This document shows positions 52,730-54,827 of a stretch of DNA of 64,000 nt, piece after piece. Source of the stretch: Comamonadaceae bacterium (lineage in GTDB: Bacteria; Pseudomonadota; Gammaproteobacteria; Burkholderiales; Burkholderiaceae_C); the NCBI GenBank assembly GCA_947454955.1, contig CANGLW010000007.1, forward strand, positions 28,915 through 92,914. The letters are read 5' to 3'. The notes below the pieces were generated by a model. It was not told the DNA's origin and did not search any database. It was given only the letters and a program-made list of their open reading frames with translations. The translations under genes and the position numbers were made by a program. Numbering within the stretch: position 1 is the first letter of the stretch; each line of letters begins with the position of its first letter.

Positions 52730-52744
52730 AGCGATGCACCAAAG

Positions 52745-52775
52745 AAAAAGGGCAGCTTAGAGCTGCCCTTTTTTT
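52745..52775. terminator. bidirectional rho-independent terminator
   Basis: AAAAA-GGGCAGCT-tag-AGCTGCCC-TTTTTTT. It sits between the convergent decarboxylase gene and the puc operon. Confidence 0.75.
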
Positions 52776-52800
52776 CGCCAGCCGAAACTGGCCTGATGGA

Positions 52801-52893
52801 TCACTTCTTGTTCTTGGGGCGGTTGAGCCAGTTGGCCAGCACGAACACGCAGAACACGCCGAACATCAGGATGATGACATTTTGAACGCTCAT
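52801..52893 (-). CDS. unannotated 30-aa single-TM peptide ORF downstream of pucC
   Basis: MSVQNVIILMFGVFCVFVLANWLNRPKNKK. AAGGAG lies 5 nt upstream of the ATG (52891-52893). The ORF starts 28 nt after the pucC stop and is followed by the terminator at 52745-52775. It is below the ORF-track size cutoff. Confidence 0.45.
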   Translation of the reverse strand: MSVQNVIILMFGVFCVFVLANWLNRPKNKK

Positions 52894-52921
52894 GGGAACT
52901 CCTTGTGGATGGGTAAGTGCA

Positions 52922-54277
52922 TTATCGCGATATTAATGGCCGAATCAGCCAAAGGGTCAACATCAGCAGCAGTATTTCCAGACCATAGACCACGCTGTAG
53001 CCCGAAGCGCTGCCCACCGCCAGGGTGAGCACGTCGCGGAAAATACCACCCAAAGCCATGCCCAAACCGCCGGCGGTGGCTTGCGCAGCACCCCACGCGC
53101 CCAGGGCCAGGCCCACTTGTTCTTTGGGGGCCATTTGCATGGTGTTGGTCAGTGTGCCGTGGCCAAACAGGCCGCCGCCCAGACCAATCAAAAACACACC
53201 CACGCCAAAAACCCATACAGATAACCAGGGTGCGGCCAAAATCACCGCGGCAAACGCTGGGATGCCCACACGCGCACCCAGGCGGGCCATGCGCATCGGG
53301 TCCACGCCCCGCGCCAGCACTTTGGAGGCCCAGGCAAAGCCCATCAAGCCGCCTCCTGCCAGTGTGGCGGTGAGCAGGGTGGTGGCTGACACGCTCATGC
53401 CCAACACCTCGCCGCCATAAGGCTCCAGCAGCACGTCTTCCATGGTGAAGGCCATGGTGCCCACCGCCACCACTGCCATGCGGCGTATCGCGTGTTGGCC
53501 TTGGCTAAAGCTGGCCCAGACTTCTGAAAAACTGCCCTCGGTGGGTGTGCCGGGTTTGCGCATGCGGCTACGGGCTTCTTGCTTCCACACCGCCACCACA
53601 TTGAGCACCATGGTGGTCAGCGCTGTGCCTTGCACCACCTGAATGAGTTGGCCCGGGCTGTATTCAGCCAGCAATTGCCCAAACACCAAGGCGCTGAAAA
53701 TCATGCCCACCAGGAGCATCACGTACATCAGGCCCACCACTTTGGGGTGGTCTTGTTGTGGGGCCAAATCGGTGGCCAGGGCCAGGCCCACGGTTTGGGT
53801 GGTGTGGATGCCTGCACCCACCAGCAAAAATGCCACCGCAGCGCCCATTTGCCCAACCCAAGCTGGCGCGCTGTGCGACTGGCCCGCACCGGCCAACACC
53901 AACAAGGCAAAAGGCATGATGGCAAAGCCACCGAATTGCAAAAGCGTGCCCATCCAGATGTAAGGCACACGGCGCCAACCCAACTCAGAGCGGTGGTTGT
54001 CTGACTTGAAGCCAATCAGGGCGCGTGCGGGGGCGAAGAGCAGGGGCAGCGAGACCATGATGGCCACCAGGGCTGCGGGCACTTTGAGCTCCACAATCAT
54101 CACCCGGTTGAGCGTGCCCACCAGCATGACCATGGCCATGCCGACTGAAATTTGAAACAAGGAAAGCCGGAGCAAACGGCTCAACGGCAAGTTGTCCGAC
54201 GCGGCGTCGGCAAAGGGCAAAAAACGCGTGCCCAGGGTCACCCAGCTGTGTGCGAGTTTTCGGGGTTGGGTGGACAT
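52922..54277 (-). CDS. pucC: BCD-family MFS protein PucC/LhaA (light-harvesting complex assembly)
   Basis: 12-TM MFS. The N-terminus ...FLPFADAASDNLPLSRLLRLSLFQISVGMA.V.L.GTLNRVMIVEL matches my memory of the PucC/LhaA/Bch2 family. It is directly downstream of the antenna genes. Confidence 0.85.
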   Translation of the reverse strand: MSTQPRKLAHSWVTLGTRFLPFADAASDNLPLSRLLRLSLFQISVGMAMVMLVGTLNRVMIVELKVPAALVAIMVSLPLLFAPARALIGFKSDNHRSELGWRRVPYIWMGTLLQFGGFAIMPFALLVLAGAGQSHSAPAWVGQMGAAVAFLLVGAGIHTTQTVGLALATDLAPQQDHPKVVGLMYVMLLVGMIFSALVFGQLLAEYSPGQLIQVVQGTALTTMVLNVVAVWKQEARSRMRKPGTPTEGSFSEVWASFSQGQHAIRRMAVVAVGTMAFTMEDVLLEPYGGEVLGMSVSATTLLTATLAGGGLMGFAWASKVLARGVDPMRMARLGARVGIPAFAAVILAAPWLSVWVFGVGVFLIGLGGGLFGHGTLTNTMQMAPKEQVGLALGAWGAAQATAGGLGMALGGIFRDVLTLAVGSASGYSVVYGLEILLLMLTLWLIRPLISR

Positions 54278-54283
54278 AGAAAT

Positions 54284-54309
54284 GGGTCGGGGCCTTGCAA
54301 CCCCGACCC
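54284..54309 (-). promoter_or_regulatory. intercistronic stable hairpin between pucA and pucC
   Basis: Perfect 9-bp GC-rich stem GGGTCGGGG / CCCCGACCC with an 8-nt loop. On the coding strand it is followed by AUUUCU. Confidence 0.55.
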
Positions 54310-54323
54310 GAGTGCGGGAAGCG

Positions 54324-54512
54324 TTACTTCTTCGCCGCGTCTGCAGGCGCCGTCACAGCAGCTTTAACGCCACCGTTCAAGAAGCCTTTGACCCAGGTCG
54401 TGTTGGACACGATGGCCAGGTGCACGCTGAAGGAACCGATCGCCACGGCAGCCAGGAACACTGGGATGCCGACGGATGGTTTCACAACACACCACATTTT
54501 GGAATAAATCAT
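54324..54512 (-). CDS. pucA: light-harvesting (LH2-type) alpha polypeptide
   Basis: MIYSKMWCVVKPSVGIPVFLAAVAIGSFSVHLAIVSNTTW... has one TM helix with the BChl-ligand His and an Ala/Pro-rich C-terminal tail. It closely resembles Rubrivivax gelatinosus PucA as I remember it. GGGAG RBS. Confidence 0.8.
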   Translation of the reverse strand: MIYSKMWCVVKPSVGIPVFLAAVAIGSFSVHLAIVSNTTWVKGFLNGGVKAAVTAPADAAKK

Positions 54513-54524
54513 GATGCGCTCCCT

Positions 54525-54677
54525 TTACTTCAGCCAGGGTGAGTAGATATAGGCCAGCAAATGCGCGAATGCAGCAATCATTCCGAATATTTGCGTGCCC
54601 TGGATGAGGTTGCGGTGCACCTCTTCCGATTCGGCCTCGGTCAATCCCGTGGGCCAGACTTTGTCTTTATCAGACAT
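54525..54677 (-). CDS. pucB: light-harvesting (LH2-type) beta polypeptide, 50 aa, absent from ORF track
   Basis: Hand translation: MSDKDKVWPTGLTEAESEEVHRNLIQGTQIFGMIAAFAHLLAYIYSPWLK. It shows the conserved E-E-x-H and AHLL....PWL antenna-beta signatures. AAGGAG RBS lies upstream of the ATG (54675-54677). Confidence 0.8.
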   Translation of the reverse strand: MSDKDKVWPTGLTEAESEEVHRNLIQGTQIFGMIAAFAHLLAYIYSPWLK

Positions 54678-54783: not shown

Positions 54784-54827
54784 TGTAATCTAGACCTTAC
54801 TGCTATTAATGTCAATTAGATAAGACA
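54784..54827 (-). promoter_or_regulatory. puc promoter with paired PpsR/CrtJ-type palindromes
   Basis: In gene orientation the sequence reads TGTCTTATCTAATTGACA (perfect TGT-N12-ACA, 54810-54827), an 8-bp spacer, then AGTAAGGTCTAGATTACA (half-degenerate, 54784-54801). TTGACA (54810-54815), 17 nt, then TAGATT (54787-54792) forms a sigma70-like -35/-10 embedded in the two sites. Confidence 0.5.

What the first reader, a model, noticed from the sequence alone, without database searches (positions are those of the whole stretch)
52801..52893. Unannotated 30-aa transmembrane peptide ORF as last gene of the puc operon
The ORF MSVQNVIILMFGVFCVFVLANWLNRPKNKK begins 28 nt after the pucC stop. It has a near-consensus AAGGAG 5 nt from its ATG. 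It ends 25 nt before the only strong terminator of the region (52745-52775).

It encodes one hydrophobic helix followed by a basic tail. Its size and position resemble small accessory antenna or reaction-centre peptides (PufX, LH gamma-type, protein W) and other micro-subunits of membrane complexes. The sequence does not resemble any of these that I can recall.

It is too short for the ORF track and would probably be missed by standard annotation.
Basis: partly seen in the sequence, partly recalled or inferred. Interest (0 to 1): 0.62.

Follow-up and report, generated by a model that had tools for sequence, protein, structure and literature searches.

The report
Conserved micro-protein gene after pucC
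The 30-codon reading frame after pucC is a real, conserved gene for a one-helix membrane micro-protein that closes the light-harvesting (pucBAC) operon of freshwater Burkholderiales phototrophs; it has no described family or function, so these abundant bacteria probably have an overlooked part of their peripheral antenna or of the machinery that assembles it.

Summary
The ORF lies at 52801-52893 (-) and has AAGGAG 5 nt upstream. It starts 28 nt after pucC and ends 25 nt before a strong terminator hairpin.

A 30-aa ORF alone means nothing, but this one is conserved. 73 of 79 Burkholderiales pucB-pucA-pucC loci (Limnohabitans, Polynucleobacter, Comamonadaceae MAGs) carry an ATG-started ORF of 27-43 aa directly after pucC. 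Its 26-codon core never has a gap, the motif is h-h-L-A-N-W-F-N-R-P-K, and it has its own Shine-Dalgarno site. Codon variation follows the coding pattern, with dN/dS about 0.4-0.55.

In the window's genus, all 5 of 44 species that have pucB also have the ORF. It is absent from Rubrivivax-like genomes where pucC is inverted, from five alphaproteobacteria-like pucBAC loci, and from beside the PucC paralogues.

AlphaFold2 gives one helix (residues 3-23). The basic tail predicts N-out/C-in topology. Pfam, NCBIfam and PDB have no match, and databases call it "hypothetical protein". Metatranscriptome contigs cover it.

Its ribosome-binding site is as strong as those of pucB and pucA, whereas pucC has none. 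I therefore favour a low-stoichiometry LH2-bound subunit (about 0.45) over a PucC partner (about 0.3). The function is inferred, not shown.

The parts
52801..52893 (-). Micro-protein gene (30 codons plus TGA): MSVQNVIILMFGVFCVFVLANWLNRPKNKK, fourth and last cistron of the puc operon
   Evidence: The ORF is listed. Homologous ORFs occur after pucC in 73 of 79 loci. Codon-position entropy is 1.25/0.64/1.46 and dN/dS is about 0.41-0.56. AlphaFold2 gives a helix over residues 3-23 with mean pLDDT 88.7. C-tail net charge is +2.9 against +0.2 at the N-terminus.
52899..52904 (-). Shine-Dalgarno AAGGAG, 5 nt before the ATG
   Evidence: Sequence. Duplex energy with the anti-SD is -8.0 kcal/mol here. 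The family median is -7.4, against -2.2 for pucC.
52745..52773 (-). Intrinsic terminator hairpin with an A-run and a U-run, between the convergent puc operon and the decarboxylase gene (ends 52729 on the + strand)
   Evidence: RNA fold of 52735-52805: -31.6 kcal/mol, z -3.9. ORF map.
52922..54277 (-). pucC (451 aa), the LH2 assembly factor of the BCD/MFS type
   Evidence: PF03209, E 2.3e-150. It has no Shine-Dalgarno site (-3.0 kcal/mol).
54284..54309 (-). 11-bp G+C-rich hairpin between pucA and pucC, a likely partial terminator or mRNA-stabilising element that lowers expression of the distal genes
   Evidence: Pattern scan. Fold -26.1 kcal/mol, z -4.3. Its function is inferred by analogy with puc and puf operons (own knowledge).
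54324..54512 (-). pucA, LH2 alpha polypeptide (62 aa), with His31 and Phe44-Leu45
   Evidence: PF00556, E 2e-7. Sequence.
54525..54677 (-). pucB, LH2 beta polypeptide (50 aa)
   Evidence: PF00556, E 5.6e-8.
54784..54827 (-). puc promoter region: TTGACA-17-TAGATT (54815-54787) overlapped by TGT-N12-ACA (54827-54810) and AGT-N12-ACA (54801-54784), which are PpsR/CrtJ-type sites
   Evidence: Promoter scan. Palindromes read from the sequence. PpsR binding itself was not tested.

Best explanation
SHOWN. The ORF is a genuine protein-coding gene. It is the fourth cistron of a pucB-pucA-pucC-sORF operon that runs from a PpsR-type promoter to a terminator. It belongs to a conserved family of 27-43-aa peptides confined, as far as sampled, to Burkholderiales that carry a co-directional pucBAC operon. 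The peptide is predicted to be one transmembrane helix (residues 3-23). A conserved A-N-W-F-N-R-P motif sits at the helix end and a basic tail follows.

INFERRED (positive-inside rule). The short N-terminus faces the periplasm, and the motif and tail lie at the cytoplasmic membrane surface. This is antiparallel to the LH alpha and beta polypeptides and at the level of the B800 pigments.

INFERRED, and my committed reading. The peptide is a low-stoichiometry third polypeptide of the peripheral antenna, which here is of the B800-820 type. It docks helix-to-helix on the alpha/beta ring, or on a late assembly intermediate. It stabilises or shapes the ring through the two near-invariant interfacial Asn residues and the Trp/His/Gln at position 22.

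Its dosage follows the same logic as PufX in puf operons. It lies distal to the mRNA hairpin that follows the abundant alpha/beta genes, so its mRNA is scarcer. It is nevertheless translated efficiently from its own strong Shine-Dalgarno site.
For: Real gene:
- 73 of 79 pucC loci have the ORF with ATG at the same aligned position and a Shine-Dalgarno site. The spacer to pucC ranges from -4 (ATGA overlap) to +150 nt, while the first 26 codons are never gapped.
- The second codon position is the most conserved and the third the least (entropies 0.64 and 1.46). dN/dS is 0.41-0.56 with dS about 1.1.
- All loci with enough upstream sequence have pucB-pucA.

Link to LH2:
- In 401 genomes of the order, the 15 best of 17 profile hits outside the window's own genome lie 1.8-2.0 kb downstream of pucB on the same strand. 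pucB-positive genomes without a hit carry divergent versions.
- All 5 pucB-bearing species among 44 in the genus have it.
- It is not found beside LhaA or the third PucC paralogue in the window's own genome.

Structure and topology: AlphaFold2 helix 3-23, pLDDT 88.7. Tail charge is +2.9 against +0.2, and N21 and N24 are each present in 62 of 69 sequences.

Subunit rather than PucC partner (weak evidence):
- Median SD:anti-SD energy is -8.5 for pucB, -8.25 for pucA and -7.4 for the sORF, but -2.2 for pucC. The peptide is therefore built to be translated like the structural polypeptides and well above PucC.
- Its divergence tracks PucB and PucA (partial r 0.38 and 0.34) more than PucC (0.22).

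Transcription: contigs from three metatranscriptome runs (X22, X23, X30) cover the sORF of a Limnohabitans relative. Two further RNA-labelled runs have contigs joining the pucC 3' end to the sORF at this locus.
Against: There is no protein-level evidence of any kind: no mass spectrometry, no ribosome profiling and no structure of a betaproteobacterial LH2.

The gene always follows pucC, and in 6 loci it overlaps the pucC stop codon (ATGA). That is the classical signature of subunits of one complex and favours the PucC-partner rival.

LH2 complexes solved from alphaproteobacteria need no such helix (Rba. sphaeroides LH2 lacks any third subunit, PMC9618040). Rubrivivax-like Burkholderiales have pucBA without it. 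It is therefore dispensable for LH2 as such.

The Shine-Dalgarno argument is indirect, because any short ORF that is not translationally coupled needs its own site. The distance correlations are confounded by shared phylogeny.

The peptide evolves fast (mean p-distance 0.57 against 0.12 for beta), which is unusual for a pigment-binding core subunit.
Confidence: 0.45

Rival explanations
1. The peptide is a small subunit or partner of PucC. It binds the 12-helix MFS-type assembly factor in the membrane, as KdpF, AcrZ or CydX bind their large partners. It stabilises PucC or tunes PucC-dependent delivery of bacteriochlorophyll and polypeptides during LH2 assembly, and it is not part of mature LH2.
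For: It is always the gene immediately after pucC. ATGA start/stop overlap occurs in 6 of 73 loci. It lies distal to the pucA hairpin together with pucC, so it shares pucC's lower mRNA level. It is lost exactly where pucC has been inverted away from pucBA (G173, G269, G420). PucC forms oligomeric membrane complexes at assembly sites in Rba. sphaeroides (PMC4949548).
Against: Translation signals are mismatched. The sORF has a strong Shine-Dalgarno site and pucC has virtually none (-7.4 against -2.2 kcal/mol), which predicts a large excess of peptide over PucC. The homologous assembly factors LhaA and the bchG-linked paralogue in the same genome have no such partner. PucC works without it in alphaproteobacteria and Rubrivivax-like bacteria. 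sORF divergence tracks PucC least.
Confidence: 0.3
2. The peptide is a real membrane protein whose job is not specific to LH2. It could be a general membrane or stress micro-protein, a membrane-curvature or lipid-interacting peptide, or a toxin-like hydrophobic peptide that merely rides on the puc transcript.
For: Its size and composition (hydrophobic helix plus basic tail) are shared with many bacterial small membrane proteins and type I toxins. Only noise-level matches were found, to OAD_gamma, TatA, FixQ and the end of MscL TM2. It evolves fast.
Against: Occurrence is strictly tied to pucBAC. Apart from one hit at a contig end and two weak matches inside long frames, profile hits in 401 genomes of the order lie downstream of pucB. 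There is none in the pucB-negative species of the genus that one search covered. It has kept its position and sense orientation inside the operon across families. No separate promoter or antisense RNA signature is evident.
Confidence: 0.1
3. The ORF is not translated. The conserved stretch is an RNA element of the puc 3' end, such as a stabiliser or a 3'-UTR-derived small RNA, and the open frame is incidental.
For: RNA contigs that cover just the sORF region reach higher depth than the pucC body in one metatranscriptome. Two other frames of the 26-codon core are also often open (only 12 of 71 and 14 of 71 sequences have stops).
Against: The start codon is conserved at a fixed register and a Shine-Dalgarno site lies 5-9 nt upstream in essentially all members. 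Third-position variation exceeds first and second. The amino-acid motif is conserved at saturated synonymous divergence (dS about 1.1). There are no indels in 26 codons, while the flanking spacers vary from -4 to 150 nt. No conserved RNA structure is needed to explain any of this.
Confidence: 0.03

Closest known systems
PufX of Rhodobacter (last gene of pufQBALMX, a single-helix component of RC-LH1)
   Same: It is a single transmembrane helix encoded as the last cistron of an antenna operon, distal to the hairpin-stabilised alpha/beta segment. It is therefore made at lower stoichiometry than alpha/beta. It is lineage-restricted, fast-evolving and long overlooked.
   Different: PufX is about 70-80 aa, belongs to the LH1 core complex and is confined to Rhodobacter-type alphaproteobacteria. 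No sequence similarity was found (no Pfam hit). The present peptide is 27-43 aa, sits in the LH2 (puc) operon after pucC and is betaproteobacterial.
LH2 gamma polypeptides: Rps. palustris gamma (RPA1495, PMC9618040) and Rba. capsulatus PucE (own knowledge)
   Same: They are a third, non-alpha/beta polypeptide attached to the peripheral antenna. The palustris gamma lies near the cytoplasmic side, where the conserved motif of this peptide is predicted to sit. It is present at one copy per ring.
   Different: The palustris gamma is an extended, non-helical ribbon in the membrane plane. It binds six BChls through Ser residues and is encoded away from the puc genes (PMC9618040). PucE is about 14 kDa. 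This peptide is a 21-residue helix with no PDB sequence match. Pigment binding is pure speculation.
Micro-subunits of membrane machines: KdpF (29 aa), CydX, AcrZ, CcoQ/FixQ
   Same: They are single-helix peptides of 30-50 aa encoded inside the operon of the complex they bind. They are often translationally coupled to the preceding large membrane protein, usually stabilise the complex, and are non-essential.
   Different: There is no homology (only noise-level Pfam matches). The partner here, PucC or LH2, is unproven. The mismatch in Shine-Dalgarno strength with pucC is not typical of 1:1 subunits.
Database entries for the same family, e.g. hypothetical protein DelRiverFos06H03.12 (AAX48193.1 / UniRef100_Q58PN9)
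   Same: It is in the same 90%-identity cluster as the JirII-31-type (L095) member (cluster 8, 37 aa).
   Different: It is annotated only as hypothetical, and as 'HAMP domain-containing protein' in another source's name, which I take to be a mis-annotation. I found no publication that discusses it.

Membership tests
Light-harvesting alpha/beta polypeptides (Pfam PF00556, LHC) | Sequence match to the LHC profile | tested here: not met
   There is no PF00556 hit for the window peptide at E<=1, nor for any of 68 members. pucA and pucB of the same operon do hit.
Light-harvesting alpha/beta polypeptides (Pfam PF00556, LHC) | Conserved intramembrane His that ligates bacteriochlorophyll | tested here: not met
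   The window peptide has no His. Across the family His occurs only at variable positions 4, 5 and 22.
PufX | About 70-80 aa, encoded at the 3' end of the puf operon, with sequence similarity to Rhodobacter PufX | tested here: not met
   The peptide is 30 aa and lies in the puc operon, not the puf operon. It has no Pfam match.
PufX | Physical presence in the RC-LH1 core complex | not testable with these tools
   This needs biochemistry or cryo-EM.
Rps. palustris LH2 gamma (RPA1495) | Extended non-helical ribbon with evenly spaced Ser ligands for six B800 BChls (PMC9618040) | tested here: not met
   AlphaFold2 predicts a single helix over residues 3-23. The window peptide has a single Ser, at position 2. 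A profile search of PDB chains gave no antenna protein.
Operon-encoded micro-subunit of a membrane complex (KdpF/CydX/AcrZ type; a functional class, not a homology family) | Single-helix peptide under 50 aa, encoded inside the operon of its partner, conserved with it | tested here: met
Operon-encoded micro-subunit of a membrane complex (KdpF/CydX/AcrZ type; a functional class, not a homology family) | Demonstrated binding to the partner complex | not testable with these tools
   No complex prediction or proteomics was available here.
Type I toxin-like hydrophobic peptide | Stand-alone locus with an antisense or overlapping RNA antitoxin, with patchy and multicopy distribution | tested here: not met
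   The gene is single-copy in the genome. It is always the sense-strand last cistron of pucBAC. Toxicity itself was not tested.

The most novel reading that the evidence does not exclude
The peripheral antenna of freshwater Burkholderiales phototrophs (Limnohabitans, Polynucleobacter and relatives) is a three-polypeptide complex. This 28-30-aa helix is a previously unseen third subunit. Its cytoplasmic-side N-[W/H/Q]-F-N-R motif contacts, or even ligates, bacteriochlorophyll at the B800 level, or it sets ring size or closure. In that way it would contribute to the unusual 799/813-nm antenna reported for Limnohabitans.
Probability: 0.15. Interest if true: 0.8.

Novelty: new variant of a known kind. 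Interest (0 to 1): 0.6.

Why it matters
Limnohabitans, Polynucleobacter and related Comamonadaceae are among the most abundant bacteria in lakes and rivers. Their bacteriochlorophyll antenna is spectrally atypical (799/813 nm in L. planktonicus, PMC12654162) and structurally unsolved.

A conserved fourth gene in the antenna operon means that the parts list used to interpret these antennae, alpha, beta and PucC, is incomplete. If the peptide is part of LH2, it is a new type of antenna subunit. If it binds PucC, it gives a first handle on how this poorly understood assembly factor works.

Either way the hypothesis is directly testable in cultured strains that carry the gene. The case also shows that genes of 30 codons or fewer inside well-studied operons are still missed or left as 'hypothetical'.

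Tried and rejected
- The search for related loci and the search for homologous proteins refuse 30-aa queries.
- The HMMER scan of 1.84 billion representatives found only 9 called proteins, as expected for ORFs at the gene-caller length limit, so it said little.
- A degenerate DNA pattern for LANWLNRPKNKK found only the one closest relative.
- The plasmid tblastn with PucC returned only LhaA-type paralogues in bchM-lhaA-puhA clusters, not puc operons.
- The search for homologous proteins with PucC listed only close relatives, so it did not reach alpha or gamma PucC.
- The PDB profile search gave only the end of MscL TM2 at E 0.01. That is a generic helix-plus-basic-cluster resemblance and I rejected it as homology.
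- Pfam and NCBIfam gave scattered noise hits (TatA, OAD_gamma, FixQ, DUF2784), none consistent.
- I considered a read-through PucC-linker-peptide fusion for AlphaFold2. I dropped it because the tool returns no contacts and the linker would force a topology.
- I rejected the idea that the peptide is a split-off 13th helix of PucC. An alphaproteobacterial PucC (L125) ends in the same way: a last hydrophobic helix, then a basic stretch.
- I rejected a leader or attenuator peptide, because it is the last cistron before the terminator.
- Earlier-scan look-ups by sequence and by words found nothing on this peptide.

Full report
**1. What is in the window**

The minus strand between 54827 and 52745 holds a compact operon.
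- A sigma-70-like promoter (TTGACA-17-TAGATT, 54815-54787) is overlapped by a perfect TGT-N12-ACA and an AGT-N12-ACA palindrome (read). These are the PpsR/CrtJ type of site.
- pucB (54525-54677) and pucA (54324-54512) follow. Both match PF00556.
- An 11-bp G+C-rich hairpin lies at 54284-54309 (-26.1 kcal/mol, z -4.3).
- pucC occupies 52922-54277 (PF03209, E 2e-150).
- After a 28-nt spacer comes AAGGAG-5 nt-ATG and the 30-codon ORF 52801-52893.
- 25 nt later there is an A-run/U-run hairpin at 52745-52773 (-31.6 kcal/mol for the local fold, z -3.9). It separates the operon from a convergent Orn/Lys/Arg decarboxylase gene.

The genome is a 2.78-Mb freshwater MAG in 101 contigs. It also carries pufL and pufM and a bch/puh cluster on other contigs, so it is a phototroph and the puc operon lies outside the photosynthesis gene cluster.

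**2. Is the ORF more than chance?**

On its own it is not: 99 ORFs of at least 25 aa overlap an 8-kb stretch here. The decisive evidence is comparative.

I fetched 80 loci that encode PucC proteins 63-85% identical to this one. They come from Limnohabitans, Polynucleobacter, and Comamonadaceae and Burkholderiaceae MAGs. All loci with enough upstream sequence have pucB-pucA in front of pucC.

In 73 of the 79 loci where the pucC stop could be located, an ATG-started ORF of 27-43 aa follows pucC. The consensus is M-[EK]-x-x-x-I-L-I-I-M-[FWY]-V-V-F-x-x-F-x-L-A-N-W-F-N-R-P-x-K.
- The distance from the pucC stop ranges from -4 nt (ATGA overlap, 6 loci) to +150 nt.
- The first 26 codons align without a single gap.
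- The start codon is always at the same register.
- A GGAG-type Shine-Dalgarno site precedes it.

Across 71 distinct nucleotide sequences, entropy per codon position is 1.25/0.64/1.46. Pairwise dN/dS is about 0.41 (median) to 0.56 (summed) at dS about 1.1. This is the pattern of a translated hydrophobic peptide under purifying selection.

The closest relative is G021, labelled Hylemonella sp. UBA6679. Its peptide is 80% identical behind a different, 80-nt spacer.

**3. Distribution**

*Order sample.* In an even sample of 401 genomes of the order, the profile hit 17 genomes besides the window's own.
- In 14 of them the hit lies 1.8-2.0 kb downstream of pucB on the same strand.
- One more hit lies at a contig start with pucB cut off.
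- Two weak hits fall inside long frames and I take them as false.
- pucB-positive genomes without a profile hit still carry a divergent ORF of 27-30 aa with the same architecture and a Shine-Dalgarno site after pucC. An example is MTLTTWTLIAWVYIVARVLTNHYGKTKG.

*Exceptions.* Three Rubrivivax-like genomes have pucC convergent to pucBA and the alpha polypeptide has a long Ala/Pro tail. One other genome also lacks the ORF.

*Genus.* 5 of 44 species have pucB, and all five have the ORF. None of the pucB-negative species covered showed a match better than E 0.6.

*Phylum sample.* In a 401-genome sample the profile found only the window, one divergent member in the same family, and one chance-level hit. 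Five alphaproteobacteria-like pucBAC loci have no such ORF. In four of them a larger gene follows pucC directly.

*Paralogues.* In the window's own genome the PucC paralogues LhaA (bchM-lhaA-puhA) and the bchG-linked one have no small ORF behind them.

The peptide is therefore a lineage-specific accessory of co-directional pucBAC operons in Burkholderiales.

**4. What the peptide looks like**

AlphaFold2 run on a 68-sequence alignment gives a single helix over residues 3-23 (mean pLDDT 88.7). The N-R-P-K-N-K-K end is non-helical.

The best-conserved positions are M1, N21, N24 (62 of 69 each), A20, F17, I9 and F23. Position 22 is W, H, Q or D.

The tail after residue 21 carries +2.9 net charge on average, against +0.2 for residues 1-5. 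By the positive-inside rule the N-terminus is periplasmic and the motif sits at the cytoplasmic interface. This topology is an inference.

No family in Pfam, NCBIfam or the PDB matches. Public databases name members 'hypothetical protein', for example AAX48193.1 from a Delaware River fosmid. Five full-text searches found no paper describing it.

**5. Expression**

Contigs from three metatranscriptome runs (X22, X23, X30) match the sORF of a Limnohabitans relative with only 1-2 mismatches. Two further RNA-labelled runs give contigs that join the pucC 3' end to the sORF of this locus.

These are assembled contigs, and DNA carry-over cannot be excluded. This supports transcription only.

**6. Mechanism**

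Two readings compete.

The position right after pucC, the occasional ATGA overlap, and the loss of the ORF where pucC is inverted all suggest a PucC partner.

Two further observations point toward the antenna itself.
- *Translation signals.* Across the loci the median SD:anti-SD duplex energy is -8.5 (pucB), -8.25 (pucA) and -7.4 (sORF), but -2.2 kcal/mol for pucC, and 83% of pucC starts are weaker than -3. In the window, pucC starts 6 nt after the hairpin with no Shine-Dalgarno site. The peptide is thus set up to be made in clear excess over PucC, like a structural polypeptide. Its place behind the pucA hairpin still keeps it below alpha/beta, which is the arrangement known for PufX in puf operons (own knowledge).
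- *Divergence pattern.* Pairwise divergence of the peptide follows that of PucB and PucA (partial r 0.38 and 0.34) better than that of PucC (0.22). This is a weak, phylogeny-confounded hint.

I therefore commit to a sub-stoichiometric LH2-bound helix, at about 0.45. The PucC-partner model stands at about 0.3. A real but LH2-unrelated peptide is about 0.1, and an untranslated RNA element about 0.03. That the ORF is a real, translated, puc-dedicated gene I rate above 0.9.

**7. Context and novelty**

The alpha polypeptide has Phe44-Leu45 after the ligand His31. That is the LH3 (B800-820) signature of Rbl. acidophilus (own knowledge). It fits the 799/813-nm antenna reported for L. planktonicus (PMC12654162).

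Known third components of purple-bacterial antennae are all unrelated in sequence and different in size or fold. They include PufX, the Rps. palustris gamma ribbon (PMC9618040), Rba. capsulatus PucE, and proteins W, Y and Z. This is a new peptide family of a familiar general kind, so I rate it a new variant of a known kind. It is of moderate-to-good interest because it is directly testable in cultured strains.

Noticed in passing
window 54324-54512 (-): The LH2 alpha polypeptide has Phe44-Leu45 thirteen and fourteen residues after the ligand His31. This is the signature that makes Rbl. acidophilus LH3 absorb at 820 instead of 850 nm (own knowledge). It suggests a B800-820-type antenna and matches the 799/813-nm peaks reported for Limnohabitans planktonicus (PMC12654162).
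   Followed up: partly
window 54278-54309 (-): pucC has no Shine-Dalgarno sequence (-3.0 kcal/mol), and its ATG lies 6 nt after an 11-bp hairpin. The lack of an SD site is general across 59 loci (median -2.2), so PucC translation is probably kept very low by design.
   Followed up: partly
window 54784-54827 (-): A perfect TGT-N12-ACA and an adjacent AGT-N12-ACA palindrome overlap the -35 and -10 elements of the puc promoter. These are PpsR/CrtJ-type repressor sites. They imply oxygen/light control of the whole operon, including the micro-protein gene.
   Followed up: partly
L042, L044, L050, L074 (Polynucleobacter), directly after pucC: A subgroup of Polynucleobacter has a 78-aa multi-helix ORF in place of the 28-30-aa ORF: MTTFPKLAEKILIIFGFF...GYGIGDYFNNEVKE. 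Its C-terminal G-D-Y-F-N-N resembles the A-N-W-F-N-R motif, so it may be an extended relative. Profile scores were not significant, and it has no Pfam family.
   Followed up: partly
L118, L119, L120 (G173, G269, G420): In these Rubrivivax-like genomes pucC is convergent to pucBA. The alpha polypeptide has a long Ala/Pro-rich C-terminal extension, and no micro-protein ORF is present.
   Followed up: partly
L125, L127, L128, L129 (alphaproteobacteria-like pucBAC loci): The gene right after pucC encodes a 210-370-aa protein that starts MT[TK][VI][VI]TR[LC][FY]. The first 60 residues of one (L125) have no Pfam match. It occupies the place of the micro-protein gene.
   Followed up: no
window 52819-53132, run X19: One RNA-run contig is identical to the window inside the micro-protein ORF but differs at 21 positions in the adjacent 200 nt of pucC. 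The cause could be unusually strong nucleotide conservation of the sORF, recombination, or a chimeric contig. It remains unexplained.
   Followed up: no
L027, L029, L038, L056, L076, L089 (record titles): Several freshwater Burkholderiales MAG contigs that carry pucBAC bear implausible NCBI organism labels: Rhizobium sp. Q54, Bordetella parapertussis, Akkermansia muciniphila and Bifidobacterium sp.. I take these to be mislabelled bins.
   Followed up: no
own genome C16:39318-49144: The photosynthesis gene cluster (bchG, bchP, bchL, bchM, lhaA, puhA ...) lies on another contig. pufL and pufM lie on contig C95, with a short third PF00124 match on C16. The puc operon sits alone between fabI and a decarboxylase gene. 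The decarboxylase gene also lies downstream of the operon in the closest relative, G021.
   Followed up: partly
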